Assembly (NCBI GenBank): GCA_041640595.1
Contig: JBEPZY010000001.1
Location: forward strand, 832,001-896,000
Direction: 5' to 3'
Length of the DNA stretch: 64,000 nucleotides
Origin: Gemmatales bacterium
GTDB taxonomy: Bacteria; Planctomycetota; Planctomycetia; Gemmatales; HRBIN36
Shown: piece by piece, positions 5,307 to 54,278 of the stretch
How positions within the stretch are numbered: position 1 is the stretch's first letter
Layout of the letters: every line of letters begins with the position of its first letter
Notes under the pieces: generated by a model
What the model was told of the DNA's origin: nothing
The model's database searches: none
Seen by the model: only the letters and a program-made list of their open reading frames with translations
Made by a program: the position numbers and the translations under genes

Positions 5307-7289
5307 ATGCCTCAACTGGCTGCCGACAAAATTCGAAAGCAAACCGAGGAAGAACTTTTCGGCCCCTCGCGACTGCAAGAGGAAGCTCCTCACTTCGCCC
5401 GCAGCGTGGGCATCTTTGGACTGTTCGTCCTGCTAGCCAGCGCTGTTATGGCCGGTTGGAATGCCATTCGCCTGATCATCGGGGGCGAATCCAGTCAACT
5501 TCCTTTCTTCGGCCGCGGCTGGATAAACTTCTGGGTCACGGCCGGTTCTGCAATGCTCTACTTCCATGCCGCTTTTGATCGAGCCCTTGAAATCCGACGC
5601 AGTTATATGACCCTCGCCTGGCTGGCTCTGGTAAGCGGTGCTCTCGCCGGGTTTATCTGGGTCATCCACGGCTTATGGGGTACGGTAGCCGCTATCGTCG
5701 TCAGTATCCTTGCCGGTCTGATGACACTCGCCGTGACCGTTTCACCGTGGGTTGTGGCGTCCGACCAGGGGTCGGAATCGAACCAGGTTGACGGCGGAGA
5801 GCGAGTTCGAGAAACCATGAACGATTCGACCGCCGAAGCTGCCTCCCCTTCTGCCCCGCCGGTAAACTGGTTTTTCTCCCGCCTGAGCCAACTCGGCTCT
5901 TTCCTGGTTCGCTGGAACAGCCTAATCGGAACAGACGTAGCGGTAACACGAATTACCTTTGCTGCCGCTGTCCTGATAGCTCTGGCCATCATCGTCCCGG
6001 CTCTCCTGGTCGTCCGTTTCCAGTGGAGTGCACTGCCTTCAGTGAGTCTGCTCTCTATGTTGGCCGGGACAGTTTTTTTGATTACTGCCGCTAAGCACGA
6101 AAGAGAGTGGACCTGGCGGCAAGCCGCGGCATACTTGCTGGCGCTAGCGAATTTCGGAGCGACCGTAGTGTTACTGGGCTTCGTGATTCGCGATCTCGTT
6201 CAGACTAACGATCCCGGTATAGTGGCTCCCGCGGGGTTAGTGGCGGGACTGCTGGGGCTGGTATTTTTCCTGGGCCAGGTTAACCTGAGCGGCACCGATG
6301 ACGATTTGAGTTATTATGCTGCCATCGTCTGTTTGTGCCTGACAGGCGCGCTCGTAGCCCTCCTAAGCATTATTCGTAGTTCGTTGCCGCCACTATCCGT
6401 TTACTTGAGCGACACCTGGCGTCCCAGCCCGTACTTCATTCCTAACGGCTTATTATTAGTGATACTTTCAGCCTTGCAAATCATTACCGGACTGGTGACG
6501 GTGTCGAATAACCAGTTGGTAGCCATCTTTCGCCGCGAGCTATTAGCCTACTTCTACACTCCGGCAGCTTATTTAGTCCTGGCAGCTATCGCTTTGCTGG
6601 CTGCCTTTCAGTACTTGGTTTGGATGAGCATTCTGTTAGCAGGAGCTTCCGACCCGGGCTTGCGTGATGTTTTCACCGAACCGGTGATTCGCTGGTACTT
6701 CTATCAGATTCTGCCGGTTTTTGCCTTGCTGGCCATTCCCCCGTTCGTAACGATGCGATTATTTAGTGAGGAAAAGCGCACCGGTACGCTGGAAGTTTTA
6801 TTAGCCGCTCCGGTGAGCGAAACCACGGTGGTGTTGGGTAAATTTTTAGGAGCCTGGGCTTTCTTCCTGGTCGCTTGGGGGATGTGGTTTGTGTTCCCGC
6901 TGATCTTTCGTTTTCTGATGGGACAGCCATTTGACTATAACCCGATGCTTAGTTTTTATGTAGGAACCGGCTTTATGGCGTTATCGTTCATTGCCATCGG
7001 GGTATTTTTCTCGGCGCTGACGGAAAACCAGGTAATCGCGGCGGTGTTGAGTTATGCCGGCGTCTTCGCCATGTTTTTCCCACAATTGCTACACTGGATT
7101 TTCACCTCGGTCCGTGGCGGCGCAGGGGGATGGATAGCCAACGTAATTCGGGAAATAGCGATTCTTCAACAATACGATAACTTCCTCGAGGGACGTATGT
7201 ACTTGCAACATTTGCTCTATCACGTCAGCATCGCGGTGCTTTTCGTATTTCTGACGGTGAGAATCCTTGAATCGCGCAAATGGAAGTAA
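5307..7289 (+). CDS. ABC-2 permease (GldF-like) with long N-terminal multi-TM extension
   Basis: C-terminal ~250 aa contains FRRELLAYFYTP, TMRLFSEEKRTGTLEVL and SALTENQVIAA. About 400 extra, largely hydrophobic, residues at the N-terminus. GGAGG upstream; start may be 5298. Confidence 0.85.
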   Translation: MPQLAADKIRKQTEEELFGPSRLQEEAPHFARSVGIFGLFVLLASAVMAGWNAIRLIIGGESSQLPFFGRGWINFWVTAGSAMLYFHAAFDRALEIRRSYMTLAWLALVSGALAGFIWVIHGLWGTVAAIVVSILAGLMTLAVTVSPWVVASDQGSESNQVDGGERVRETMNDSTAEAASPSAPPVNWFFSRLSQLGSFLVRWNSLIGTDVAVTRITFAAAVLIALAIIVPALLVVRFQWSALPSVSLLSMLAGTVFLITAAKHEREWTWRQAAAYLLALANFGATVVLLGFVIRDLVQTNDPGIVAPAGLVAGLLGLVFFLGQVNLSGTDDDLSYYAAIVCLCLTGALVALLSIIRSSLPPLSVYLSDTWRPSPYFIPNGLLLVILSALQIITGLVTVSNNQLVAIFRRELLAYFYTPAAYLVLAAIALLAAFQYLVWMSILLAGASDPGLRDVFTEPVIRWYFYQILPVFALLAIPPFVTMRLFSEEKRTGTLEVLLAAPVSETTVVLGKFLGAWAFFLVAWGMWFVFPLIFRFLMGQPFDYNPMLSFYVGTGFMALSFIAIGVFFSALTENQVIAAVLSYAGVFAMFFPQLLHWIFTSVRGGAGGWIANVIREIAILQQYDNFLEGRMYLQHLLYHVSIAVLFVFLTVRILESRKWK

Positions 7290-7308
7290 ACAAGGAGGCA
7301 ACGATACT

Positions 7309-9498
7309 ATGTCGAGCAATGCACCCTGGATCGGTCGCCAAGAGCAACGCTGGAGGCCTGCATTGCTGTTGATGATGTTCGCCGCTGTTATAGCCCTGGT
7401 GGCGACGGTTTGGCTTGCATTCAAAATCTACCAGGCCACTGGGCAGCAGCAACCGAGGTTCCCCTATGTCCCCTGGTTGGCTTTCAGTATCGCCAGCCTT
7501 GTTATTTCTGTTGGGACGGCACTAAGCCTGTGGCTTAGTCATAAGTATGCAGAATCGGAGCAAACCCTGGCGAGTGCGGAAAAAGCGAATTTTCTCGGCT
7601 GGCTAGCCCTGGAGGCATTTGTTGTCGCAGCTGCCCTCGGATTGGCGCCAGTAATTTTGGAATACTCCCTTAGCCCAGTGGACAACTGGTTCACTCGCGT
7701 CAATCGCGGACTCCAGGCCTGGCGAGAATGGCCTACCTGGAAGCCTATCGTTTTTACCGTAGGCGGCTTGCTGGGAATGATGTTGGCATTTAGCTTCATG
7801 GTAAACGAAGCCCGCGAAAATCCCTTCGTCCGCCGACTTATCTACGGCTATAACACATTTGTCAGCGCAGTCCTGTTGCTTGGTATCTTGATTGTTGTCA
7901 ACGGCATCGCCTTTGCTTATGGAACGCGACCGTTTGACTGGACTTCTACAGGCACCTATACGGTACACGAAAGGATGCAAAATCTTCTCCGCCGGCTCGA
8001 TAAGCCCGTACATGTCTATGTGCTCATCGACCCTGAGGATAGTCTTTATCCTGAGATGCGAAATTACTTAGACCTTTGCCAGACCTATAATCGGGAAAAG
8101 TTCCGTGTTCATTATCCCTTTCTGCGCGGAACCCGTGAATTGCTGCAACAGTTATTCCAGCGTTATCGCGTGTCTTTTGATCAGGCGGGTATCCTGGTGG
8201 TGTATGACCCCGATGATCGAAATGCTTATCAATTCATTCGCCGGGACGACTTGCGTTCTGAAAGCCGATTCGGTCGCGAACCTCCTGTGTTTAAGGGAGA
8301 AAGCTCACTGGCTTCAGCTTTAGTTACGCTTATGCAAGGTCCTGAAAAACCTGCGATTTACTTTACTACCGGTGCCGGGGAAATGACGCCTGGTCACGCC
8401 GATAAAAACCGTAACTTGCTCAGGCTGAAAGATCGATTGGAACAGCAAGGTTACCGTGTAAAAGAAGTGGACTTGACCAAGCGAGATGCTTCTGGTGGTC
8501 CAGCAACAGAAGTTTTACAGGCGCTCTTAGAAGCCGAGGTGCTGATCGTTGCCGACTCACTTAGCGCACCGCCGGGATATGTTGAAATGTTGAAACTGTA
8601 CATGGGCAGTCCGGCACCACTGGGACTGCCGCAAAGTTTAGGACTGGTGAGCGCTGCCCTTCAGGGGCCCTTATTTCTGTTCGATCCCTCGGCAATGGAC
8701 TGGTTCATGATCCAGCAAGTTCGCCGTGGGAAGGGGCGTTTGATGGTGTTTACAGGTGCACATCTAGAAAATAGAGCGCCCACTGCTTGTCCACTAGAAG
8801 CGATGCTCAAAGATTATGGCGTCTCGGTAGGTCGGGATGTCGTGTTTTCGCTGGTGCGTGGGCAAATGCTCAACGCATTTGTACGCATCAATCCGCGAGC
8901 AGATGAACGCCTGCGAGCCGGTTTATCTCCCAGTCAATTAGAGACGGTATTTGCAATCCCGTTGTGCCGCAGCCTTGATTCTGGCCAGGGCGGTGACTAT
9001 GTAGTTACGCCCTTGCTTCAAACAGCCGTTCCCATTTATTTACTGCAAGACCGGCTTCTGGCCGACGATCTGGAAGAACATCTCCTGGAGCATCGGGATA
9101 GAGATCCTGAAGGCTTCAAACAACGCATCAAGAACCCGCCGCAAACCGTGGCCGTGACCGTGCGGGAGCGATCCTCCCGTGTGCCGCGGGATCCGTTTCA
9201 TGCCGGTGTAGCTGGGGAGGGAACGCCCCGACTGGTCGTTTTTGGCAGTGCCGGGCTGGCAATCCTGGCTGGCCTCGAGGACTTTCATTTCAACCTCATC
9301 GCTTCTTCATTAGCCTGGCTAAGAGATCGCCCGGAATTGATAGATGTCGGAATTCCCCCGCGCGACAAAAAATCGTTTGAGCCTGGTCCTAATTTCCAGC
9401 AATATTCCTTGCTTAGCTTTATGGTTCAGGGTCTGATGGTATTCGCGCTGGTCATAGTCAGCGGCATCGGCGTCTATTTAGTTCGCCGACATCAGTGA
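7309..9498 (+). CDS. GldG-family ABC auxiliary component
   Basis: N-terminal TMs, FDWTSTGTYTV, IYFTTGAGE, RLVVFGS and a C-terminal TM ending in RR. GGAGG RBS before ATG 7309. Confidence 0.82.
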   Translation: MSSNAPWIGRQEQRWRPALLLMMFAAVIALVATVWLAFKIYQATGQQQPRFPYVPWLAFSIASLVISVGTALSLWLSHKYAESEQTLASAEKANFLGWLALEAFVVAAALGLAPVILEYSLSPVDNWFTRVNRGLQAWREWPTWKPIVFTVGGLLGMMLAFSFMVNEARENPFVRRLIYGYNTFVSAVLLLGILIVVNGIAFAYGTRPFDWTSTGTYTVHERMQNLLRRLDKPVHVYVLIDPEDSLYPEMRNYLDLCQTYNREKFRVHYPFLRGTRELLQQLFQRYRVSFDQAGILVVYDPDDRNAYQFIRRDDLRSESRFGREPPVFKGESSLASALVTLMQGPEKPAIYFTTGAGEMTPGHADKNRNLLRLKDRLEQQGYRVKEVDLTKRDASGGPATEVLQALLEAEVLIVADSLSAPPGYVEMLKLYMGSPAPLGLPQSLGLVSAALQGPLFLFDPSAMDWFMIQQVRRGKGRLMVFTGAHLENRAPTACPLEAMLKDYGVSVGRDVVFSLVRGQMLNAFVRINPRADERLRAGLSPSQLETVFAIPLCRSLDSGQGGDYVVTPLLQTAVPIYLLQDRLLADDLEEHLLEHRDRDPEGFKQRIKNPPQTVAVTVRERSSRVPRDPFHAGVAGEGTPRLVVFGSAGLAILAGLEDFHFNLIASSLAWLRDRPELIDVGIPPRDKKSFEPGPNFQQYSLLSFMVQGLMVFALVIVSGIGVYLVRRHQ

Positions 9499-46350: not shown

Positions 46351-47256
46351 TCAGGGTTCCTGGCCGGGCATTACGAAGTAGAAGTCGCTGTCACCATCAC
46401 TGAGTCGGCGTAGCTGCATGGTACGAAGAATTTTTGCCATCTCCCGCACGTAGTATGCCTGTACGGCCCGTTGTGGATCGCTGGATTCGGCCAGGCTAAG
46501 CCACAACGCACGGTGTCGGTAAGCCTGTGAGCGTGCCTGGGCAATCTTCTCCCGCTGCTGATTCTGAGCCTGAGTGATGACCAGATTGGCCTCCTGCAAG
46601 GCCCGCGAACGAGCTAACTCCGCTTCCATGTGAGTCGTTTCCTGCAACCGTGCCGCCTGCGACATCGCTACTGTCGTGGCCTGGAAATCCTCAGCGACTT
46701 CTTCCGGTGGTTGTGGCGTGGCCAGCGTTACTGCCTCGATCACCACGCCCAGGCGATAGGATTTTAGATACTGCGAAACGCGCTGATGAATTTCCGGTTC
46801 CAGATGGCGGGCACGGTTAAGCAGAATTTCCTGGATCGGTTGCCGGGCAAACACATGGGCAAGTGCTGCTTCTCCGGCCCGGCTAATCAGAGGCACCAGG
46901 CGATCCTGATGCAACACATAATCGGGAACACGGTCCGGGTCGGGGCGGAAGAATATCGTAGCCTGGACGTTAACCAGATTATCGTCTCCGGTAAGTAACT
47001 GGCCGGGTGGAGCCACTTCCAGCACACGCTCCTCTCCAGCTTCAAAGCCGACACGGATTTGCTGTTGTTGCAGCGGTACGAAAGTAACCCGATCGAATCC
47101 CCAGGGTAAACCAAAATGCAAGCCGGGGCCGCAAACCCGGTACACTTTCCCGAACCGCTGAACCAGCGCCAGCTCGCCAGCGTTCACCTGGAAAATTCCC
47201 GTGGCCAGATACGCTAGCCCTGCCAGTGTTATGCATCCCAGTGCCAGACGCTGCAT
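46351..47256 (-). CDS. HflK-like SPFH/band-7 protein
   Basis: N-terminal TM, LVQRFG, PGLHFGLPWG, LLTGDDNLVNV, PPEEVAEDF and an Ala/Gln coiled coil. Confidence 0.85.
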   Translation of the reverse strand: MQRLALGCITLAGLAYLATGIFQVNAGELALVQRFGKVYRVCGPGLHFGLPWGFDRVTFVPLQQQQIRVGFEAGEERVLEVAPPGQLLTGDDNLVNVQATIFFRPDPDRVPDYVLHQDRLVPLISRAGEAALAHVFARQPIQEILLNRARHLEPEIHQRVSQYLKSYRLGVVIEAVTLATPQPPEEVAEDFQATTVAMSQAARLQETTHMEAELARSRALQEANLVITQAQNQQREKIAQARSQAYRHRALWLSLAESSDPQRAVQAYYVREMAKILRTMQLRRLSDGDSDFYFVMPGQEP

Positions 47257-47335
47257 GTTTCCCAGCTCCTTGTTGCCAAGGCGTTTTTATTGCTCGCCAG
47301 TTGCGGTTGAGCAGTAGCCCGCTGTGCCATTGTGG

Positions 47336-48445
47336 CTAGCGATTTGGGCTGCTGTTGTTCGGCTTGACCACCGACCGGTGTTCTTTATCGCTGGCCAGGT
47401 TCGGCAAGTCACGTAGCCACTTCAACAACGGGTGATCCAGCGACAGAATCATCTGCGTGCGACCATCGCCGAGCCATTCGCGGTAAAAGTCGAGGTACAG
47501 GAGCAACTCGTAGGCTAGCGGTGCTTCACGATAAACAGCGTTGAGAATACGGTTGGCTTCGCTCTGGGCCTCGCTTTCCAGAGCGCGCTTCCGGGTCTCG
47601 GCCTCGGTGCGAATCTTGCTGACCTCCTTGAGACTGGCGGCGCGAATTTCCTGAGCCTTTTCCTCACCCTGATTGCGAAAGCGCTGAGCCAGGCGTCGCT
47701 GCTGTTCGGCAATCTGCTCAAAAATCTGCTTCCGCACTTGCACCGGGTGATTGAAACGCCGTAGCTGCGCGTCCACGATTTCGATCCCATGCTGCAATGC
47801 CCGTTGCCTCAGGCTAAGCTTTTCCGGATCACCCGGCTCGCGTTCGTAAGGCCTGTCGAGCAAGTTACGCAGCATTTCTGCGACGGTACGCTGACGGGGG
47901 TCGGTGTTGACAAGGTCGCTATAGCTCAATTCGGCCATTTCCACCTTAAGCCGGCTGATTAGCTGATTGCGAAGCCAGGCCTGGGCCCGGTCGAGTGTTC
48001 CGAAACTGCGGAGAAATGCGTTGACGGGATCGCGCCGGTAACTTTCCACGGCATCGGTATCCCGCGAGGCGATTCGCCATACCAGGTACACATCGAAGGT
48101 CAGCCGTAACGGCGTTTCCCGCTGGACCTCGGGAACACGGTCATCAGCCGAGACGAACTGTGTATCACCGGGGCTGGACATGCCGGTGTGGCCACCGGTA
48201 CGAATGAGCAATTCTTGCGTGGGAATATCGAGCACCTGAATGCGGCGATCCATGCGCAGGATGCTCTCAATCGGCCAGGGCCATTTCCAGTGCAGTCCGG
48301 CTTCTACCTCGCCGTCGAACGTCGCGCGGTGCTCGCCGAAGCGGGTAACATACACCACCTCTCCCAGGTCCACAAAAATAATCGCACTGTAAACACACCA
48401 GGCAGCCACGCCCAGAATGAGCAATCCCCACAAGAAGCGACGCAT
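47336..48445 (-). CDS. HflC-like SPFH/band-7 protein
   Basis: N-terminal TM, VTRFG, AGLHWKWPWP, GIEIVD, RLAQRFRNQGEEKA.EIRA and A..ILN.VY. AGGAG RBS. Confidence 0.85.
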   Translation of the reverse strand: MRRFLWGLLILGVAAWCVYSAIIFVDLGEVVYVTRFGEHRATFDGEVEAGLHWKWPWPIESILRMDRRIQVLDIPTQELLIRTGGHTGMSSPGDTQFVSADDRVPEVQRETPLRLTFDVYLVWRIASRDTDAVESYRRDPVNAFLRSFGTLDRAQAWLRNQLISRLKVEMAELSYSDLVNTDPRQRTVAEMLRNLLDRPYEREPGDPEKLSLRQRALQHGIEIVDAQLRRFNHPVQVRKQIFEQIAEQQRRLAQRFRNQGEEKAQEIRAASLKEVSKIRTEAETRKRALESEAQSEANRILNAVYREAPLAYELLLYLDFYREWLGDGRTQMILSLDHPLLKWLRDLPNLASDKEHRSVVKPNNSSPNR

Positions 48446-48589
48446 CGCTAGCACTCCTGGCTAATCGGACAAATAGTTGTCAGATTCGAGCCGAGGCACG
48501 ATTGTCCCGTGCCTTTATCACTCCGCCTCGCAGCGACAGCGAAGAAAAATGTTCCGCCGACGGAAAACGAGGCGGTTGCATTCGTGGCA

Positions 48590-51500
48590 TCATTTTTCCT
48601 CTTGAATAGGCCGACGCGGTGGGAAAGTTTCGCCCGGCACGACAATGCGTGGCCGAAAAGCATCTGGCAACACATGCAGACGTCCCTTGAGTTGCGGATC
48701 ACGAATCAGGCGCGGTTTGCCAGCCAGTGCCTGACCCACCAGTTCGAGTGTCCACCGCAGCCGCGTCAAGGCCCAATCAGTCTCAGCGTGATTGTGATTA
48801 TGGTTGCTGGCCCAATGGAGATTGACAGCCAAATTGAGTGGCTGCGTGCCATCTGCAACAGGCCAGGTCGGCCAATTCAATTGATGCACGCTGGGCCGAC
48901 GTAGCGAATTCTCCAGCTCCCGAATGGCCTGAGCTTCAGCTCTGGCACGAGCAACGGTCTGGAAATGATCGGCTTCCGCCTGGGCTACGATTTTGCTCGC
49001 CTCCACCCGGGCCGAAGAAATGGCTGCTGCCGCTTCGCGGTTGGCCTCGATGATGCGGCGGTTGCGTTCCAACAGTGCCCGCGTGACGTCGTAATAGGCA
49101 TCCACAATTTCCGGCGGCGGATGCAAATCCTGCACCGCCACGGTTTCCAGCGTTATCCCCAGCTGCAGGTGGCTGATACGGGAATGCAATCGCTGGAATG
49201 CTTCCTGCTGCAACTTTTCCCGTGCGGTCAACAACAGGCTCAGAAAATCGCTACCAGCCACCACTTCTCGCAAGGCAGTCTCGGCCTCGGCACGGAGCAC
49301 GGCTTCCGGGTCTGCCACCGCGAAATAATACTGGTGCGGCTCGGATATGCGATACTGAACCACGGCCTGAAGCTCGACCAGAACGCGATCCCCCGTGATC
49401 ATCAACCCTTCTTCCCGATCGGAACCCGGACCATCTCCGTGCGGACTGCTCCAGGTCATTGGCGCTGTGCCGCCTATGGCCATGCGCATGCCTATCGGGA
49501 CAATGCGGACACGCTGAGGCTGCACGCGCAAAATTCGTTCCCATGGCCAGGGCCAGCGTAGATGCAGGCCCGGTGATAAAGGCGTTTCCAACACCCGACC
49601 GCAGCGGTTGACCAGGCCAATTTCATCCGGGCCGATCACCACTAGGCACGTGCTCCAGTAAAGTACCACCAAAGCTATCAGGCCGGAGATAGCCAGAGCG
49701 CGGCGGTGATGCTCCGCCCAATGCATGGCTTCGTGCCAGCTGAGTCGTTCCAGCCAGCGATCCATCGCCTGAGAAGTTTCCCGCAGCCATTGCCACCATC
49801 GCCAGTGTTGGACTCGTTCAAACCACAACAGCCGCATGGCGTTGAGCAATACCGCAACCGAGCCAATCTGGTGATAAATAGCAGCCCAGAGAGGCGCTCG
49901 ATGCCGGGCCGTCTCTGACCAGGCTGGCATGAGCCACGCGGTCAGGACAATCCCTACAGCGTTTACTCCAAACGCAAACCACAGGATGTTCTGCCGGATG
50001 ATCCGCTCCGTCTGTCGGGCCAGGCGGACCAGCAAGGGCAGAGGCTTGAGCGGATCGCCCATCAGCACAATATCGCCCACTTCCGCGGCAACGTCGGAAC
50101 CAATGCTCCCCAGCGCGATTCCAACGTCGGCACGAGCCAGTGCTGGTGCATCGTTGATCCCGTCACCGACCATGGCGACACGCCAGCCGCGCTGTCTCCA
50201 GCTATCGAGCCATTCGGCTTTCTGGGCCGGTAACAGCTCTGCCACCACTTCCGTGATACCAACCTGCTCAGCCACTCGCACGGCGGCTGCTTGCCTGTCA
50301 CCTGTGAGCAAGGCGATCGGCTCCAGCCCAAGCTCTCGCAATTGCCGGACTACCACCGGAGCTTCGGCACGTATCACGTCGCTGGCTCCCAGCACACCAA
50401 CCACGCGCCCATCCACCGCACAGACCAGAACTGTCCCACCTTCCTGGTCGAGAACCGCAATAGCTTGTTCGACTTCCGGCCCGAACGAAATCCCCTGGGC
50501 AAGCAGAAAACGCTGATTTCCGACGAGCACGACCCTGCCCGCAATGCGAGCGCTGACACCGGCTCCCGGATGAGCCTGGAAGTCTTCGACCGATGGTAAT
50601 TCCAGTTGCCGCTGACGAGCTGCCGCCACTATCGCCTGGGCAAGCGGATGCTCGCTACGCTGTTCCGCGGCAGCTGCCCATAAAAGCACGTCGTCGGCGC
50701 TCATGTCGGCAACCAGTGGAATAACTCGCTGCAATTGCAGACGCCCCTGCGTCAACGTGCCGGTCTTGTCAAAAGCAATCGCCTGCACCTGAGCCAGGCG
50801 TTCCAGGGCCGCCCCACCTTTGACCAGAACACCAGTTCCGGCCAGGCGACCCAGGGCCGCGATGATCGCCGCTGGTGTTGCCAGAATCAACGCGCATGGA
50901 CAAGCGACTACCAGCACCGAAAGCGCTGGATACACCGCTTCGTATGCTCCTACGCGACCTCCGCCGTACCACCACCAGCCTGCCAGAAACGTAAGCAGCG
51001 ACAGCGTCAGAACCACGGGGAGAAAATAGCGAGCCAGTCGGTCTGCCGTGCGTTCCAGCGGTGCTTTTTCCCGCAGCGCCTGGGCAGTCAGTTCCAGCAC
51101 CCGCGCCAGTACGGTATGTTCCGCCGCACGACGCACCTCGACTACCAGGGCGCCATGTTGATTCAGAGTGCCGGCGAAGACCTCGTCCCCCGGCCCTTTA
51201 TCCACGGGAACGCTCTCGCCCGTAAGCGTGCTTTGATCCACCGCCGAGCGACCTTCGACGACGATGCCGTCCACGGGGACACGTTTGCCTGGCCGTACCA
51301 GCACCCGCTCGCCTACCCGCACATCTTCGACCCGCACACGTTCTTCCCGGCCATCCCGCAACACCAGGCACATGGTGGGACAAATTTCAGCTAACCGTTG
51401 CAGGGCGTATTGCGTTCGCTGGAACGTGATAGCCTCCAGGCATTCGCCCACCAGTCCGATGAACACCACTTCTGCCGCAACCAGAGGTTGATTAATCAGA

Positions 51501-51817
51501 ATTGCCGCTACTACCGCCAAAGCCAGAGCCAGATCAGCACCGAACCGCCCCGCCATTAAACTTTCCAACGCACTGTAAAGAATTCTTGCCCCACCGAAAA
51601 CGGCTGCCACCAGTGCCCAATCGAAATGGCGACCGAGGATGGTTAAGCCGCTCGGCAAGCGTGGTAACGCAATATTCCACCAGCTGCTCAACCATCCAGC
51701 CAATTCCGGCCAGATCGCCAGCGCTAATAGCGCCCCAATCAGCGCCGTGAACAGGTAGAGTCCGGCGTGGCTTTCACGCCGAAACATGCTGTCCAGGTAG
51801 GAAATCTCCCGGTGCAT
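48590..51817 (-). CDS. P1B-type heavy-metal ATPase fused to a C-terminal HflK-like SPFH domain
   Basis: TGES, ACPC, DKTGTLT, SEHPL and GDGINDAPAL, then a TM plus PGLHLRWPWP, MITGD..LV and QDLHPP..VDAY. Start 51817 or GTG 51829. Confidence 0.92.
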   Translation of the reverse strand: MHREISYLDSMFRRESHAGLYLFTALIGALLALAIWPELAGWLSSWWNIALPRLPSGLTILGRHFDWALVAAVFGGARILYSALESLMAGRFGADLALALAVVAAILINQPLVAAEVVFIGLVGECLEAITFQRTQYALQRLAEICPTMCLVLRDGREERVRVEDVRVGERVLVRPGKRVPVDGIVVEGRSAVDQSTLTGESVPVDKGPGDEVFAGTLNQHGALVVEVRRAAEHTVLARVLELTAQALREKAPLERTADRLARYFLPVVLTLSLLTFLAGWWWYGGGRVGAYEAVYPALSVLVVACPCALILATPAAIIAALGRLAGTGVLVKGGAALERLAQVQAIAFDKTGTLTQGRLQLQRVIPLVADMSADDVLLWAAAAEQRSEHPLAQAIVAAARQRQLELPSVEDFQAHPGAGVSARIAGRVVLVGNQRFLLAQGISFGPEVEQAIAVLDQEGGTVLVCAVDGRVVGVLGASDVIRAEAPVVVRQLRELGLEPIALLTGDRQAAAVRVAEQVGITEVVAELLPAQKAEWLDSWRQRGWRVAMVGDGINDAPALARADVGIALGSIGSDVAAEVGDIVLMGDPLKPLPLLVRLARQTERIIRQNILWFAFGVNAVGIVLTAWLMPAWSETARHRAPLWAAIYHQIGSVAVLLNAMRLLWFERVQHWRWWQWLRETSQAMDRWLERLSWHEAMHWAEHHRRALAISGLIALVVLYWSTCLVVIGPDEIGLVNRCGRVLETPLSPGLHLRWPWPWERILRVQPQRVRIVPIGMRMAIGGTAPMTWSSPHGDGPGSDREEGLMITGDRVLVELQAVVQYRISEPHQYYFAVADPEAVLRAEAETALREVVAGSDFLSLLLTAREKLQQEAFQRLHSRISHLQLGITLETVAVQDLHPPPEIVDAYYDVTRALLERNRRIIEANREAAAAISSARVEASKIVAQAEADHFQTVARARAEAQAIRELENSLRRPSVHQLNWPTWPVADGTQPLNLAVNLHWASNHNHNHAETDWALTRLRWTLELVGQALAGKPRLIRDPQLKGRLHVLPDAFRPRIVVPGETFPPRRPIQEEK

Positions 51818-51990
51818 CGCTGCGGTCACCTCCTCCAGTGATATTTCATTTTAGTTTGACCATTCTTTGTTTGCCGCTCCGGCAGCCCGGAATACATGTG
51901 CAAAGCGGCCAACCCTGGCGGTTTATCCCCGCCCCACGATCGATCCTGGTGTTGTCCTTACGAGAAACCGCGCCACATAGGGGTACTGAG

Positions 51991-52018
51991 GAAAACTTTT
52001 TTGGCTGGCGTTCGTCTT
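51991..52018 (+). promoter_or_regulatory. ECF-sigma-like promoter upstream of the DUF4139 gene
   Basis: GAAAAC-N16-CGTCT with a T-tract after the -35 element. Confidence 0.5.
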
Positions 52019-52088
52019 ACCAATGGGTCAAGCAGAATATCCACGGCGAGGTGGATTCGAAGCCTTTTCAACAAAGGGAGGTACACAC

Positions 52089-54278
52089 ATGCGAGTACGG
52101 GGTAAACTCCTGCTTTTAGGCGTCCTGGCCAGTGCCGGGCTGGGAACTTTTGGTGCCTGGCTATGGCACGGACATCGGGAACAAGCCCATGCTCAACAGG
52201 CTGCAACGGCTACACCAGCGGTTCAGCTGAAAGAACCTGCGGTTCCTTTGCCGCTCACGCGCGTAACTTTGTTCAGTGCCGGTGTCGGTCACTTTATACG
52301 TGAAGGTGAAGTCGAAGGCACGGTTCGCGCGGACTTCAATTTCCGCCCCGAACACATCAACGACGTGCTGAAAAGTCTCGTCGCCAACGATCTCGGCGGC
52401 GGAACCGTCTCCACGGTCACCTACGACAGTCAGGACCCGGTCGAAAAGACCCTGCGTAGCTTCGCCATCAACCTCCACGGCAATCCGAGCCTGGCACAAA
52501 TTCTCATCCAGGCCCGTGGCGAACGCGTCGAAGTAGTCTTGCAACAGACGGCCATTACCCAGCCGGGAACCCTTACCGGCTCCATTCTCGGTGTGGAAAA
52601 ACAGAAACAACCCGCTGGCAACACTAGCATAGATGTAGATGTCCTGAACCTGTGGTGTGCGGAGGGCGTGCGTTCGATTAAGTTGGCCGACATTCAGCGC
52701 ATCCGTTTCCTGAATCCCAACATTGAATCGGAGTTTCGCCGGGCCCTCGAGACTCTCGCCTATGCTCACGACACGCAAAAGAAGACCGTGTCCGTCATCT
52801 TCAGTGGCGAGGGAAAACGGCCGGTGCGCGTGAGTTATCTCCAGGAAAATCCCATCTGGAAGATGAGTTATCGGCTTGTGCTCCATAAGGAAGGCAAACC
52901 GTATTTGCAGGGCTGGGCGATTGTCGAAAATCAAACCGATGAAGATTGGCAAGGCGTGCGCGTGGGTCTGGTGAGCGGTCGGCCCATCTCGTTCATCATG
53001 GATTTGTACCAGCCCCTTTATGTGCCCCGCCCGGTTGTGGACCTGGAGCTATTGGCGAACCTGCGGCCGGTAACTTATACTGGGGCAATGCAATTGATGG
53101 AACAGGGGGGCCTTGGAGCAGCGTTGCCACCGGGAGCTCCGCAGGGGGGCTTGCAGTCAGCCAATCGCGAAAAACAAGCAGGTCACGCCGCCGTAGCCGA
53201 TGCGGCCAAACGTGACCGAGGCGAAGCGAACGAACTCGAACTCCGGCGAGCTGCTGCCGCGCGACAGTTCGGCCAGAACCTGGCTCGCGGCATCGAATCG
53301 GTGGCTTCCGCTCAAGACCTGGGCGATTTCTTCGAGTATAGCATCGAACATCCTGTCACGCTCCCGCGGCAAAAGTCGGCTTTGCTGCCGGTCATCACTC
53401 AGCGAGTCGAAGGCCGACGGGTTAGCATCTACAACGAACGCCATCTGGCTAAACATCCCCTCCTGGGCTTCTATTTGAAGAACACCACCGGTTTGCATCT
53501 ACTTCAAGGCCCGATCACGGTGTTTGATGATTCGACTTACGCCGGTGAGGCCAAGATCGGCGACATTCAACGCGGCGAGGAACGCTTGCTCAGCTACGCC
53601 GTTGATTTAGGCACGGAAGTCGAGCCTCAGGCTAAACGTCAACCGGATCGGCTGGTGGCCGTGCGTGTGCAGCGCGGTGTCCTATATGCCACGAACAAAG
53701 TACGCGAAGAAAAGACCTATGTCATTCGCAATCGTTCCGAACAGGATCGCGTAGTCCTGATAGAACATCCCTATCGCGGTCCCGATTTCAAACTCATCGC
53801 CCCGGAGAAACCGCTCGAGCGTGCTCGCGATGTTTATCGCTTTGAAGTAACGGTGCCTAAAGGCGAAACCAAGAAGCTGGAAGTCATCGAGGAACGCGAT
53901 GTTGTGAGCACGGTGGCACTAAGCAACGCGGACGACCAGACTATCCGCATTTTCCTGCAAAGCCCGATCACCAGCCAGAAAGTCAAGGATGCCCTGAGTG
54001 AAATCGTGCAAAGGAAGCACCGTCTGGCCCAGTTGCAGCAGGAACTGACGCAAACACAGGCCGAGCTAAAGATACTGGTGGACGATCAGGCACGCCTGCG
54101 AGCCAACATGCAGGCTCTGCCGCCTAGCAGCGAAACTTACAAACGCTACCTGAAAAAACTCGATGAGCAGGAACCCTTGATTGATAAGTATCAGGAACGT
54201 ATCAAGGCCCTGCAACAGGATATCTTGAAACAGCGGCAGGCCCTGGACAATTACCTGGTCAATCTCAATCTCGATTAG
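52089..54278 (+). CDS. DUF4139-type protein with signal/anchor and C-terminal coiled coil
   Basis: VTLFSAGVGHF, INDVLKSL, P.WK.SYRL, LQGWAIVEN, LVSGRPISF and RLLSYAVDLG. GGGAGG RBS. Confidence 0.8.
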   Translation: MRVRGKLLLLGVLASAGLGTFGAWLWHGHREQAHAQQAATATPAVQLKEPAVPLPLTRVTLFSAGVGHFIREGEVEGTVRADFNFRPEHINDVLKSLVANDLGGGTVSTVTYDSQDPVEKTLRSFAINLHGNPSLAQILIQARGERVEVVLQQTAITQPGTLTGSILGVEKQKQPAGNTSIDVDVLNLWCAEGVRSIKLADIQRIRFLNPNIESEFRRALETLAYAHDTQKKTVSVIFSGEGKRPVRVSYLQENPIWKMSYRLVLHKEGKPYLQGWAIVENQTDEDWQGVRVGLVSGRPISFIMDLYQPLYVPRPVVDLELLANLRPVTYTGAMQLMEQGGLGAALPPGAPQGGLQSANREKQAGHAAVADAAKRDRGEANELELRRAAAARQFGQNLARGIESVASAQDLGDFFEYSIEHPVTLPRQKSALLPVITQRVEGRRVSIYNERHLAKHPLLGFYLKNTTGLHLLQGPITVFDDSTYAGEAKIGDIQRGEERLLSYAVDLGTEVEPQAKRQPDRLVAVRVQRGVLYATNKVREEKTYVIRNRSEQDRVVLIEHPYRGPDFKLIAPEKPLERARDVYRFEVTVPKGETKKLEVIEERDVVSTVALSNADDQTIRIFLQSPITSQKVKDALSEIVQRKHRLAQLQQELTQTQAELKILVDDQARLRANMQALPPSSETYKRYLKKLDEQEPLIDKYQERIKALQQDILKQRQALDNYLVNLNLD

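What the first reader, a model, noticed from the sequence alone, without database searches (positions are those of the whole stretch)
46351..51817. Metal-pumping P1B ATPase covalently fused to an HflK-like SPFH domain, in an operon with HflC- and HflK-like partners
Seen: one ~1075-aa ORF has a complete P1B ATPase (TGES, CPC, DKTGT, SEHP, GDGIND), then a His-rich linker (WHEAMHWAEHH), an extra TM and a full SPFH domain (~49700-48590). Two further SPFH genes follow on the same strand, and no ftsH is in the window. Established: HflK/HflC hetero-oligomerise into a large membrane cage around FtsH. Inference: here three SPFH subunits may build a cage or microdomain with the pump tethered inside it, coupling metal transport to membrane compartmentation or quality control. 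I recall similar unfused clusters elsewhere but know of no functional characterisation.
Basis: partly seen in the sequence, partly recalled or inferred. Interest (0 to 1): 0.75.

Follow-up and report, generated by a model that had tools for sequence, protein, structure and literature searches.

The report
Metal pump fused to HflK scaffold
A hot-spring planctomycete encodes a complete heavy-metal pump joined in one protein to an HflK-type membrane-scaffold subunit, next to two partner scaffold genes; this conserved design likely builds a scaffold ring around a zinc/copper-type transporter and would give a direct handle on what such scaffolds do for their clients.

Summary
Window 48590-51817 (- strand) is one open 1075-aa gene: a complete P1B ATPase, a 38-aa His/Trp-rich cytoplasmic linker, a ninth membrane helix and an HflK-type SPFH domain. 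An HflC-like and a short HflK-like gene follow. Independent assemblies bridge the junction, and the fusion is kept across the order.

First, in other Planctomycetota the same first gene of the same three-gene module carries a CDF transporter or an SO_0444-family Cu/Zn efflux permease instead of the ATPase. Second, the pump belongs to a distinct P1B group (TM4 CPC, TM6 His) that sits directly behind an unfused SPFH trio in Verrucomicrobiales and in 9 of 9 Pseudomonadaceae genomes that have it. That layout matches the published Zur-bound, zinc-starvation-induced PA2439-PA2434 (HmtA) locus. Third, a W-x3-H loop marks the SPFH subunits tied to the ATPase or to CDF.

ftsH is never adjacent.

Best reading: an HflK/C-like ring dedicated to a Zn/Cu-type transporter; the assembly, the metal and the direction are inferred.

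This scan had already noted the same design on other DNA. I found no paper that describes the fusion.

The parts
48590..51817 (-). Fusion gene, 1075 aa from ATG 51817 (the open frame begins at GTG 51829); stop codon at 48590-48592
49820..51817 (-). P1B-type ATPase part (residues 5-670). Model helices: MA 22-51, MB 71-92, M1-M2 98-148, M3 257-287, M4 292-330, M5 596-633, M6 645-669. No HMA domain.
   Evidence: Pfam and NCBIfam; AF2 model with mean pLDDT 76; PDB hits CopA 3rfu 382 bits, sCoaT 7qbz 366 bits, ZntA 4umv 299 bits
50894..50902 (-). TM4 CPC motif (C310-P311-C312)
   Evidence: invariant in 25 of 25 fusion proteins; coordinates checked
50756..50770 (-). DKTGT phosphorylation motif (D354-T358)
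   Evidence: invariant
49859..49873 (-). TM6 motif HQIGS (H653-S657). The His stands where CopA has its Met and where sCoaT has the His of HEGST.
   Evidence: H653, Q654 and S657 invariant; alignments to 3rfu and 7qbz; the same His is in the unfused SPFH-linked ATPases
49706..49819 (-). Cytoplasmic linker of 38 aa, rich in Trp and His (ends in WHEAMHWAEHH); two short helices in the model
   Evidence: the His residues are conserved only in the closer relatives
49634..49705 (-). Ninth membrane helix, equivalent to the N-terminal anchor of HflK
   Evidence: hydropathy peak 714-732; model helix 709-726
48902..49645 (-). HflK-type SPFH domain plus long coiled-coil helix (residues 729-976), predicted to be periplasmic
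   Evidence: Band_7 3e-23; E. coli HflK is the best PDB sequence hit, 6e-15; best fold hits are HflK chains 9cz2_XA 1e-18 and 7vhq_E 7e-18
49439..49453 (-). W793-x3-H797 loop (WSSPH) in an insert of the SPFH domain; low model confidence
   Evidence: present in 13/13 ATPase-fused, 4/4 CDF-fused and 8/9 long HflK-like subunits of unfused clusters; absent from 0/5 SO_0444-fused and 0/55 other SPFH rows
48593..48901 (-). C-terminal tail with an NHNHNH stretch (within 48785-48844); low confidence; His-rich only in the nearest relatives
47336..48445 (-). HflC-like gene (369 aa from ATG 48445), with one N-terminal membrane helix
   Evidence: Band_7 1e-15; TIGR01932 84 bits, below the cut-off of 134; falls in the HflC-type half of the tree, split support 100*
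46351..47256 (-). Short HflK-like gene (301 aa), with one N-terminal membrane helix
   Evidence: Band_7 1e-25; TIGR01933 106 bits, below the cut-off of 159; groups with the third genes of other trios

Best explanation
The 1075-aa protein is a complete P1B-type heavy-metal ATPase joined, through a short cytoplasmic linker and a ninth membrane helix, to a periplasmic HflK-type SPFH domain. It likely assembles with the HflC-like and short HflK-like proteins encoded just downstream into an HflK/C-like ring or dome that holds the pump.

Shown: the domain order, intact catalytic motifs, a topology compatible with HflK, conservation of the fusion, and its linkage to the two partner genes.

Inferred:
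(a) The three SPFH proteins form one hetero-oligomer in which HflC-like subunits alternate with long (pump-bearing) and short HflK-like subunits. The short ones would then set how many pumps a ring carries.
(b) The client of this scaffold is the transporter, not FtsH.
(c) The substrate is a Zn2+/Cu-type ion and not the Cu+ of CopA. TM6 has His where CopA has Met. The transporters that replace the ATPase in other lineages are CDF and SO_0444-family Cu/Zn efflux proteins. The unfused Pseudomonas counterpart is zinc-regulated.
(d) Transport runs from the cytoplasm to the periplasmic face under the SPFH domains. I favour this at about 55:45 over import, because CDF and SO_0444 proteins are efflux families. 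The ring would then confine or hand on the metal, with the membrane-near W-x3-H loop as a candidate contact or metal site.
For: Architecture.

Junction: independent assemblies bridge it and there are no indels in the coding region.

Conservation:
- 27 of 27 database hits to the SPFH part among proteins of 593-1889 aa carry Hydrolase plus Band_7, at 99-31% identity. Source names include Gemmatales, Isosphaeraceae and Acidobacteria.
- 59 of 60 relatives match the SPFH part, 54 of them in open frames of at least 1016 aa.
- 53 of 60 relatives match the whole protein at E<=1e-150. In 36 a single stop-free match reaches residue 961 or beyond.

Partners: HflC-like and HflK-like genes follow the fusion in 3/3 genomes of the same genus and in 6/6 fetched genomes of the same family. 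Over all fetched fusion loci the figure is 11 of 17.

Module with swapped transporters: in the same first-gene position, 4 proteins carry Cation_efflux and 5 carry ArsP_1. The ArsP_1 type scores above the cut-off of NF033936, 'SO_0444 family Cu/Zn efflux transporter', in 3/3 tested. Among the best 150 cluster representatives for the first-gene SPFH profile, 58 are ATPase-fused, 27 CDF-fused, 11 ArsP_1-fused, 13 carry an unassigned polytopic N-domain and 41 carry none. Pfam confirmed 27/27, 11/11 and 13/13 of those tested.

Linkage without fusion: a P1B ATPase with the same CPC / TM6-His signature follows an SPFH trio in one planctomycete, in one Verrucomicrobiales MAG and in 9 of 9 Pseudomonadaceae genomes that have such an ATPase. 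SPFH matches were found beside only 1 of 80 loci retrieved with the ATPase alignment (L080, TM6-His type). Only one other of the 80 is of that type (L108), and its contig ends at the ATPase.

Tree: ATPase-fused SPFH domains group with the long HflK-like subunits of the unfused ATPase clusters (support 91), apart from canonical HflK (92).

Motif: W-x3-H.

Papers, passages read: PA2435 and PA2437-2439 rise 5.6- to 14.4-fold under zinc depletion (PMC4542158). Zur binds the PA2439 promoter (PMC8531726). The proteins rise under zinc depletion (PMC11761036). PA2437/38/39 = PA14_33110/33080/33070 = PaFlo7/6/5 (PMC9431628; PMC13086221).

Modelled pair, fused SPFH part with HflC-like: weak support. Score 0.56, best of 3 controls 0.00. 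The mark was reached by 116 of 157 solved complexes and 2 of 215 mismatched pairs, but at 0.60 or under by only 18 of those 157 and by both mismatches that passed. Runs agree in at least 82% of contacts and the partner's pLDDT is at least 71. E. coli HflK/C is solved, so the pass may reflect likeness only.
Against: - No experiment on any fused form was found.
- The complex prediction is only a weak pass and may come from memory of HflK/C.
- In 6 of 17 fetched fusion loci the partners are not adjacent. In G419 and G440 an HflC-like/HflK-like pair lies far away and could equally be an ordinary HflK/C pair.
- This genome has no other SPFH gene, so the trio may also serve FtsH.
- Tree support for separating the fused SPFH from canonical HflK is 91-92, not starred, and the backbone is unresolved.
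- Metal and direction are inferred from motifs and from neighbouring families. The one studied relative, HmtA, is reported as an importer, from overexpression data that a review calls in need of confirmation (PMC10393844).
- hmtA mRNA itself was not zinc-repressed in one study (PMC8531726).
- The SO_0444-fused SPFH domains lack the W-x3-H loop.
- A weak hairpin lies between gene 1 and gene 2, although terminator-like sites are no more frequent here than in shuffles.
- The Pseudomonadaceae genomes I read are unnamed handles, so their identity with PA2434-2439 rests on gene order and on the papers' descriptions.
Confidence: 0.55

Rival explanations
1. The three SPFH proteins are simply this organism's HflK/HflC, the modulators of FtsH. 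The pump is fused to HflK so that it sits beside FtsH for quality control or regulated proteolysis. In that reading metal transport is coupled to proteolysis, not to a dedicated transporter scaffold.
For: They are the only Band_7 genes in a genome that is 95% complete, and that genome has one FtsH. E. coli HflK is the best hit by sequence and by fold. The middle gene falls in the HflC half of the tree at 100*. Some CDF-fused SPFH parts pass NCBI's HflK cut-off (189 and 162 against 159.4).
Against: All three window proteins score below NCBI's HflK and HflC cut-offs. ftsH lies next to none of 34 sources with the fusion or trio. Related complete genomes hold 6-9 SPFH genes. P. aeruginosa has HflK/HflC in addition to the trio (PMC13086221), so elsewhere the trio is an extra system. 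The linkage that holds across three phyla is to a metal transporter.
Confidence: 0.2
2. The pump is a zinc/copper importer like the reported HmtA. The SPFH ring would gather scarce periplasmic metal, or stabilise the pump, during zinc starvation.
For: It has the same TM4 CPC and TM6 His signature as the ATPases that follow SPFH trios in Pseudomonadaceae. HmtA overexpression gives Zn and Cu hypersensitivity and accumulation (Lewinson 2009, as cited in PMC10393844 and PMC8456098; the original paper is not held). The P. aeruginosa locus is induced by zinc depletion and binds Zur.
Against: In other lineages the same scaffold position is filled by CDF and SO_0444-family proteins, both named efflux families. 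The importer claim is described as needing confirmation (PMC10393844). No zinc regulation could be read from the window: upstream regions of four genomes of the genus share no motif.
Confidence: 0.2
3. The SPFH part acts only in cis, as a regulatory or lipid-sensing appendage of a single pump. No multi-subunit ring forms, and the two downstream genes are an unrelated HflK/C pair.
For: In 6 of 17 fetched fusion loci the fusion gene stands alone. SPFH proteins are known to modulate channels. The PDB holds a stomatin-aquaporin 1 entry, 9zd2; I saw its title only.
Against: The long coiled-coil helix that builds SPFH cages is kept (residues 906-976). The trio order long HflK-like, HflC-like, short HflK-like recurs with four different N-terminal domains and in three phyla. 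All solved SPFH family members among the fold hits are large oligomers (titles).
Confidence: 0.05

Closest known systems
Pseudomonas aeruginosa PA2439-PA2434 locus: SPFH proteins PaFlo5/6/7 (PA2439, PA2438, PA2437) followed by the P1B ATPase HmtA (PA2435)
   Same: Three SPFH genes in the order long HflK-like, HflC-like, short HflK-like are tied to a P1B ATPase without an HMA domain. In the nine Pseudomonadaceae genomes I read, that ATPase has TM4 CPC and a TM6 His. Their long HflK-like subunit carries the same W-x3-H loop and groups with the fused SPFH domains.
   Different: There the pump is a separate gene behind the trio, and the long HflK-like protein carries an unassigned polytopic N-domain instead. 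Here the pump is that N-domain. The Pseudomonad pumps have His-rich N-termini (10 His in the first 60 residues of one), against 2 in the window's. Identity to the window's ATPase is only about 34%. Zinc regulation is documented there and unknown here. The papers I read treat the SPFH genes as presumed FtsH modulators, or study them without mentioning hmtA.
Escherichia coli HflK/HflC-FtsH complex (PDB 7vhp, 7vhq, 7wi3, 9cz2, 9paw; PMC12048511, abstract seen)
   Same: An HflK-type fold with an N-terminal membrane anchor, a periplasmic SPFH domain and a long coiled coil, with an HflC-type partner gene next to it.
   Different: The anchor is preceded by a whole transporter instead of a short cytoplasmic tail. 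A third, short HflK-like subunit exists. Scores are below NCBI's HflK/HflC cut-offs. ftsH is not linked. The SPFH domain has an extra loop with W-x3-H that is absent from canonical HflK.
P1B-ATPases of known structure: Cu+ CopA (3rfu) and the P1B-4 pump sCoaT (7qbz)
   Same: All catalytic motifs and the eight-helix core are present, with similar overall scores (382 and 366 bits).
   Different: Compared with CopA, the TM5 YN becomes VN and the TM6 Met becomes His. Compared with sCoaT, TM4 is CPC and not SPC, and TM6 is HQIGS in the register of HEGST. The genome has a separate canonical CopA with HMA, YN and MxxSS.
Eukaryotic stomatin with channel or transporter clients (PDB 9zd2, aquaporin 1 bound to stomatin; title seen only)
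   Same: An SPFH oligomer whose client is a membrane transport protein and not a protease.
   Different: That association is non-covalent, homo-oligomeric and on the cytoplasmic face. Here the client is fused to a subunit, the scaffold has three subunit types and the domain faces the periplasm.

Membership tests
P1B-type (heavy-metal) P-type ATPase | Catalytic motifs DKTGT, TGES, HP in the N-domain and GDGxNDxP | tested here: met
   All present and checked at their coordinates. They are invariant in 25 of 25 fusion proteins.
P1B-type (heavy-metal) P-type ATPase | CPx motif in TM4 and an eight-helix membrane domain with MA and MB | tested here: met
   CPC at residues 310-312. Eight helices precede the linker in the AF2 model, which is a prediction.
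P1B-type (heavy-metal) P-type ATPase | Curated family score (NCBIfam TIGR01525) | tested here: met
   587 bits against a cut-off of 346
P1B-type (heavy-metal) P-type ATPase | N-terminal HMA metal-binding domain (common, but not universal in the family) | tested here: not met
   No HMA family among the Pfam hits. The N-terminus is short and goes straight into helix MA.
P1B-1 Cu+ pumps (CopA type) | TM5 YN and TM6 MxxSS | tested here: not met
   Aligned to 3rfu, YN becomes VN and the Met becomes His. The genome's other P1B ATPase and most of the ATPases retrieved whose TM6 could be parsed do show MxxSS.
P1B-4 pumps (sCoaT type) | TM4 SPC and TM6 HEGxT | tested here: inconclusive
   The TM6 His is kept in the same register, but Glu becomes Gln. 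TM4 is CPC, not SPC.
SPFH-linked P1B group (the kind of HmtA of P. aeruginosa) | TM4 CPC with a TM6 His, no HMA domain, and genetic linkage to an SPFH trio | tested here: met
   The signature is shared with the ATPases behind SPFH trios in 9 Pseudomonadaceae genomes, 1 Verrucomicrobiales MAG and 1 planctomycete. Here the linkage is a fusion.
SPFH-linked P1B group (the kind of HmtA of P. aeruginosa) | Orthology to PA2435 itself, and zinc (Zur) regulation | not testable with these tools
   The genomes read are unnamed handles. No conserved upstream motif was found in the genus. The regulation data are from papers on P. aeruginosa only.
HflK (FtsH protease activity modulator, TIGR01933) | Curated family score | tested here: not met
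   The fused domain scores 137.9 bits and the short HflK-like protein 105.7 bits, against a cut-off of 159.4.
HflK (FtsH protease activity modulator, TIGR01933) | Fold and topology: membrane anchor, periplasmic SPFH domain, coiled coil | tested here: met
   The best fold matches are E. coli HflK chains, E 1e-18. The model shows the anchor, the SPFH domain and a 70-residue helix.
HflK (FtsH protease activity modulator, TIGR01933) | Binds and modulates FtsH | not testable with these tools
   Context only: ftsH is on another contig and is absent from 34 of 34 sources with the fusion or trio.
HflK (FtsH protease activity modulator, TIGR01933) | Groups with canonical HflK in a tree | tested here: inconclusive
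   Canonical HflK (5 planctomycete rows plus 1 Pseudomonas row) forms its own group at support 92, and the fused domains a different one at 91. Neither is starred and the backbone is open.
HflC (TIGR01932), for the middle gene | Curated family score and tree position | tested here: inconclusive
   84.1 bits against a cut-off of 134.4, yet it lies inside the HflC-type half of the tree, whose split has support 100*.

The most novel reading that the evidence does not exclude
The long HflK-like, HflC-like and short HflK-like proteins build a periplasm-facing dome over Zn/Cu transporters. The dome encloses a small periplasmic chamber into which the tethered pump delivers metal, or from which it draws metal. 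The W-x3-H loops line the membrane-near rim as metal or hand-off sites. This would be a scaffold-enclosed metal-handling compartment that evolution has equipped at least three times with unrelated transporters: P1B ATPase, CDF and the SO_0444 family.
Probability: 0.2. Interest if true: 0.9.

Novelty: new variant of a known kind. Interest (0 to 1): 0.72.

Why it matters
What SPFH rings and cages (HflK/C, prohibitin, stomatin, flotillin) do for the proteins they enclose is an open question, even though many structures have appeared recently.

Here the client is named by the gene itself. A transporter is fused to one ring subunit, the same position is filled by three unrelated Zn/Cu-type transporter families, and the unfused form is part of the zinc-starvation response of P. 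aeruginosa.

That makes the question testable with three genes: stoichiometry, whether the pump sits inside or outside the ring, and the effect of the ring on transport.

It also bears on two smaller puzzles. One is the odd 'importer' HmtA. The other is why P. aeruginosa raises three 'FtsH modulators' when zinc is scarce. The present data suggest these belong to the pump and not to FtsH.

Tried and rejected
- Regulatory motif: the upstream regions of the four genomes of the genus do not align to any shared element. The consensus scan found no promoter-like site, and its 8 terminator-like sites are no more than the shuffles give (mean 5.6, sd 2.4). One is a weak 5-bp hairpin at 48552-48565 between genes 1 and 2. 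No regulator could be inferred.
- Plasmids: tblastn of the fusion against PLSDB gave at least 5000 P1B hits, but in 0 records does one place cover 80% or more of the query.
- The search for related loci with the ATPase alignment was flooded by generic P1B pumps. Of the 80 loci kept, only L080 and L108 are of the His type. I reached Pseudomonadaceae instead through the handle of one of those loci.
- The unassigned N-domain of the long HflK-like proteins: hhalign against the CDF and ArsP_1 parts gave probabilities of 0.8% and 0.1%. The Atlas's structural neighbour is a CDF cluster at TM 0.49, which the tool marks as under its bar. This stays a lead only.
- My first regex count of W-x3-H failed on most rows. 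I replaced it with column counts on an alignment.
- Lewinson et al. 2009 (PMC2651836) is not held. I cite it only through other papers' passages.
- Expression: contigs from two RNA libraries lie on the genes. X13 covers 47709-49864 across the gene 1/gene 2 gap, and X16 gives eight short pieces. The tool warns that such contigs show neither transcription nor a single transcript, so I claim no operon from them.
- Misassembly or a frameshift at the junction: rejected.
- A Cu+ CopA reading of the pump: rejected on the TM5 and TM6 residues.

Full report
**What is in the window.**
On the - strand, 48590-51829 is one open frame of 1079 codons. The likely start is ATG 51817, which gives 1075 aa. It has a GGAGGAGG 11 nt upstream, and the N-terminus MHREIS is conserved in relatives. 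Residue numbers below count from the GTG.

Pfam finds E1-E2_ATPase (151-330), Hydrolase (349-568) and Band_7 (731-933). NCBIfam's heavy-metal P-type ATPase model scores 587 bits against a cut-off of 346. TGES, CPC, DKTGT, SEHP and GDGIND are all present at checked coordinates, and they are invariant in an alignment of 25 full-length fusion proteins. No HMA domain is found.

An AlphaFold2 model (mean pLDDT 76) shows these elements in order:
- eight membrane helices of a P1B pump;
- two short linker helices (677-707);
- a ninth membrane helix (709-726);
- an SPFH domain (729-903);
- a 70-residue helix (906-976).

With eight pump helices the C-terminus of the pump is cytoplasmic. The ninth helix therefore puts the SPFH domain in the periplasm, which is the topology of HflK. 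This last step is inference from the known P1B and HflK topologies.

A separate model of the C-terminal 396 residues (pLDDT 79) matches E. coli HflK chains best (9cz2_XA at E 1e-18, 7vhq_E at 7e-18). Stomatin, HflC, erlin and prohibitin follow. By sequence the best solved relative is also HflK, at 6e-15.

Two more Band_7 genes follow on the same strand after gaps of about 145 and 80 nt. The first is HflC-like (47336-48445) and the second is a short HflK-like gene (46351-47256). Each has one N-terminal membrane helix. All three SPFH parts score below NCBI's HflK and HflC cut-offs.

**The junction is real.**
Near-identical DNA occurs in hot-spring and microbial-mat metagenome runs. Leaving out two possible source samples, 13 rows from 9 studies hold at least half of the sampled words. 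I laid four runs.
- Contigs of two DNA runs cross the ATPase-SPFH junction without gaps: 48984-52000 and 48912-49864.
- All indels seen lie between genes.

In 60 related genomes, 59 match the SPFH part, and in 54 the match lies in an open frame of at least 1016 aa. With the whole protein as query, 53 of 60 match at E<=1e-150.
- In 36, one stop-free match runs from residue 1 to residue 961 or beyond.
- In 5, the match stops at residue 779-780.
- In 10, it stops near residue 540, at a lineage-specific insert. In 9 of these 10, one search found the SPFH part in an open frame of the same length.
- One genome has the gene split over two contigs (G409), and in another the match covers only residues 374-964 (G407).
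- Seven gave no match at that cut-off. One of them has the ATPase part in three frames.

A search of the large protein collection with the SPFH part alone, restricted to proteins of 593-1889 aa, returned 27 proteins. All carry Hydrolase plus Band_7 and 25 also carry E1-E2_ATPase. Identity runs from 99% down to 31%. Source names include bacterium HR36, Gemmatales, Isosphaeraceae and Acidobacteria.

**The surroundings.**
The genome is 4.45 Mb and 95% complete. It holds only these three SPFH genes and one FtsH, which is on another contig. It has two P1B ATPases. The other one is a canonical Cu+ CopA with an HMA domain, TM5 YN and TM6 MxxSS. The flanking genes suggest no shared function: a weak DUF4139 match, anthranilate synthase, and one gene without a family.

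The HflC-like and HflK-like genes follow the fusion in 3 of 3 genomes of the same genus and in 6 of 6 fetched genomes of the same family. Over all fetched loci that hold the fusion, the figure is 11 of 17. In the other 6 the fusion stands alone. In two complete genomes of that kind, an HflC-like/HflK-like pair lies elsewhere. A tblastn search with the own FtsH found nothing in the window or in 33 fetched loci.

**A wider module.**
Searching 400 genomes of the phylum with the fused SPFH part gave many matches in long frames, often with a second SPFH gene 2 kb downstream. I sent 13 such long first-gene proteins, and one unfused ATPase, to Pfam. The first gene of the same three-gene order carries one of three things:
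- a CDF domain (4 proteins);
- an ArsP_1 permease (5 proteins);
- an N-terminal region of about 290-470 aa without a Pfam match (4 proteins).

The ArsP_1-type domains score above the cut-off of NCBIfam NF033936, 'SO_0444 family Cu/Zn efflux transporter', in 3 of 3 tested.

A profile of 25 first-gene SPFH parts was run over 1.84 billion cluster representatives. It gave 4263 hits at E<=1e-30. The best 150 break down as follows:

| N-terminal part | Representatives |
|---|---|
| P1B ATPase (26 of them full-length) | 58 |
| CDF | 27 |
| ArsP_1 | 11 |
| unassigned N-domain | 13 |
| none (39 of them under 450 aa) | 41 |

Pfam confirmed 27 of 27, 11 of 11 and 13 of 13 of the tested labels.

**The pump is a distinct P1B group that travels with the trio.**
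Overall it resembles Cu+ CopA (382 bits) and the P1B-4 pump sCoaT (366 bits) about equally, and ZntA less (299 bits). In TM5-TM6, however, CopA's YN is VN and CopA's Met is His653. The TM6 motif HQIGS lies in the register of sCoaT's HEGST, while TM4 is CPC and not SPC.

An unfused ATPase with TM4 (S/A)CPC and a TM6 His directly follows an SPFH trio in three settings:
- in one planctomycete;
- in a Verrucomicrobiales MAG;
- in Pseudomonadaceae, where 9 of 121 sampled genomes have such an ATPase (41-42% identity to the planctomycete one), and all 9 show long HflK-like, HflC-like, short HflK-like, then the ATPase.

As a rough control, I examined the 80 loci that the ATPase alignment retrieved from species genomes. 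Only L080, of the His type, has SPFH matches in its flanks. The only other His-type locus (L108) starts at a contig end. Most of the rest whose TM6 could be parsed show the CopA motif MxxSS.

The Pseudomonad and Verrucomicrobial pumps have His-rich N-termini, and so do distant fused members. The window's pump does not.

**Tree and a marker loop.**
In a tree of 86 SPFH rows, the HflC-type and HflK-type halves split at 100*.
- The 13 ATPase-fused domains group with the 8 long HflK-like subunits of trios whose first gene has the unassigned N-domain (support 91). In six of those eight (the four Pseudomonads, the Verrucomicrobiales MAG and one planctomycete) an ATPase gene was seen behind the trio.
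- Canonical HflK, including a Pseudomonas HflK, forms another group (92).
- The third-gene HflK-like proteins form two further groups.
- The SO_0444-fused domains form one clade (100*) and the CDF-fused domains form two.
- The backbone is unresolved.

A loop inserted in the SPFH domain carries W-x3-H (W793 to H797). It is present in 13/13 ATPase-fused, 4/4 CDF-fused and 8/9 long HflK-like rows. It is present in none of 5 SO_0444-fused, 6 canonical HflK, 5 canonical HflC, 26 middle and 18 third-gene rows. The rows are related to one another, so these counts show a class marker, not independent events. The loop has low confidence in both models.

**What is published.**
I checked the papers myself, reading passages.
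- PMC4542158, Table 2: PA2434, PA2435 (HmtA), PA2437, PA2438 and PA2439 rise 5.6- to 14.4-fold in a znuA mutant. A weak Zur box is reported.
- PMC8531726: Zur shifts the PA2439 promoter when zinc is present, but hmtA mRNA itself stayed low.
- PMC11761036: the proteins rise under zinc depletion. The authors take PA2438 and PA2439 for HflC and HflK, partners of FtsH.
- PMC9431628 gives the locus-tag equivalence. That makes these genes the PaFlo5-7 of PMC13086221, where the triple deletion has mild phenotypes and the words ATPase and hmtA never occur.
- HmtA is called an importer of Zn and Cu, from overexpression data that a review says need confirmation. The original paper is not held.

My searches for the fusion itself found nothing relevant:
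- SPFH + P-type ATPase + fusion;
- HflK / heavy metal / P1B;
- SPFH + prokaryotic + domain architecture + transporter;
- Band 7 + cation diffusion facilitator;
- HflK + HflC + P-type ATPase + zinc.

The 2009 survey of prokaryotic SPFH proteins contains none of the words ATPase, fused, cation or transporter.

**Mechanism.**
I read the three proteins as one HflK/C-like hetero-oligomer whose client is the transporter.

The modelled pair of the fused SPFH part with the HflC-like protein passed only weakly. The score was 0.56 and the best of 3 controls 0.00. The mark was reached by 116 of 157 solved complexes and 2 of 215 mismatches, but at 0.60 or under by only 18 of those 157 and by both mismatches that passed. 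Runs agree in at least 82% of contacts, and the partner's pLDDT is at least 71. Because E. coli HflK/C is solved, the pass may only reflect likeness.

The constant presence of both a long and a short HflK-like subunit suggests that the short one dilutes the transporter-bearing one in the ring. This is inference.

The metal theme (TM6 His, CDF, SO_0444 Cu/Zn efflux, zinc regulation in Pseudomonas) points to Zn/Cu-type ions. I favour efflux into the space under the SPFH domains because two of the three fused families are efflux families. Import, as reported for HmtA, remains a live rival.

Because this genome has no other SPFH gene, a second role with FtsH cannot be excluded.

**Verdict.**
The fused architecture is annotated in databases and was noted several times by this scan on other DNA. 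I found no description of it in the literature searched. I class it as a new variant of a known kind: an SPFH scaffold with a client, where the client is fused and is a metal transporter.

Noticed in passing
whole genome G000 (window = C1:832001-896000): The three genes of this cluster are the only Band_7/SPFH matches in a genome that is 95% complete. That genome has a single FtsH, on contig C9. Related complete genomes hold 6-9 SPFH genes.
   Followed up: partly
L055 (G404:C15:318800-331700), 6946-8973: In one genome of the same family, the ATPase part of the fusion gene matches in three pieces in different frames, while the SPFH part and both partner genes look intact. This is a possible pseudogene or a sequencing error.
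   Followed up: no
L062:5875-7653, L149:4285-6423, L153:8969-10852 and similar: The long HflK-like proteins of unfused clusters carry an N-terminal polytopic domain of 290-390 aa (5-7 hydrophobic segments) with no Pfam family. hhalign finds no relation to CDF or ArsP_1. The Atlas's structural neighbour is a CDF cluster at TM 0.49, below that tool's bar.
   Followed up: partly
alignment A1, columns 610-650 (proteins P0018, P0020, P0022); relatives G419, G421, G423, G429, G431, G440, G441, G454: One lineage of fusion proteins has an insert of up to about 45 residues just before GDGINDAP in the P-domain. The insert breaks whole-protein matches near residue 540.
   Followed up: no
window 48552-48565 (- strand): A weak 5-bp hairpin followed by a T-run lies in the 145-nt gap between the fusion gene and the HflC-like gene. 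Such sites are no more frequent here than in shuffled sequence.
   Followed up: no
L005:1474-3765 (G000:C1, about 215 kb from the cluster): The genome's second P1B ATPase is a textbook Cu+ CopA with an HMA domain (MHCASCV), TM5 YN and TM6 AMAFSS.
   Followed up: yes
window 52023-54278 (+ strand): The gene transcribed divergently from the fusion gene encodes 751 aa with only a sub-threshold DUF4139 match (27 bits against a cut-off of 31.8). I did not check whether it is conserved next to the fusion.
   Followed up: no
L021:1231-2985, L015:1330-3186: The CDF parts of the CDF-SPFH fusions find the magnetosome CDFs MamB and MamM, and MntE and FieF, as nearest named NCBIfam models, all far below cut-off. 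Their SPFH parts pass NCBI's HflK cut-off, unlike the window's.
   Followed up: no
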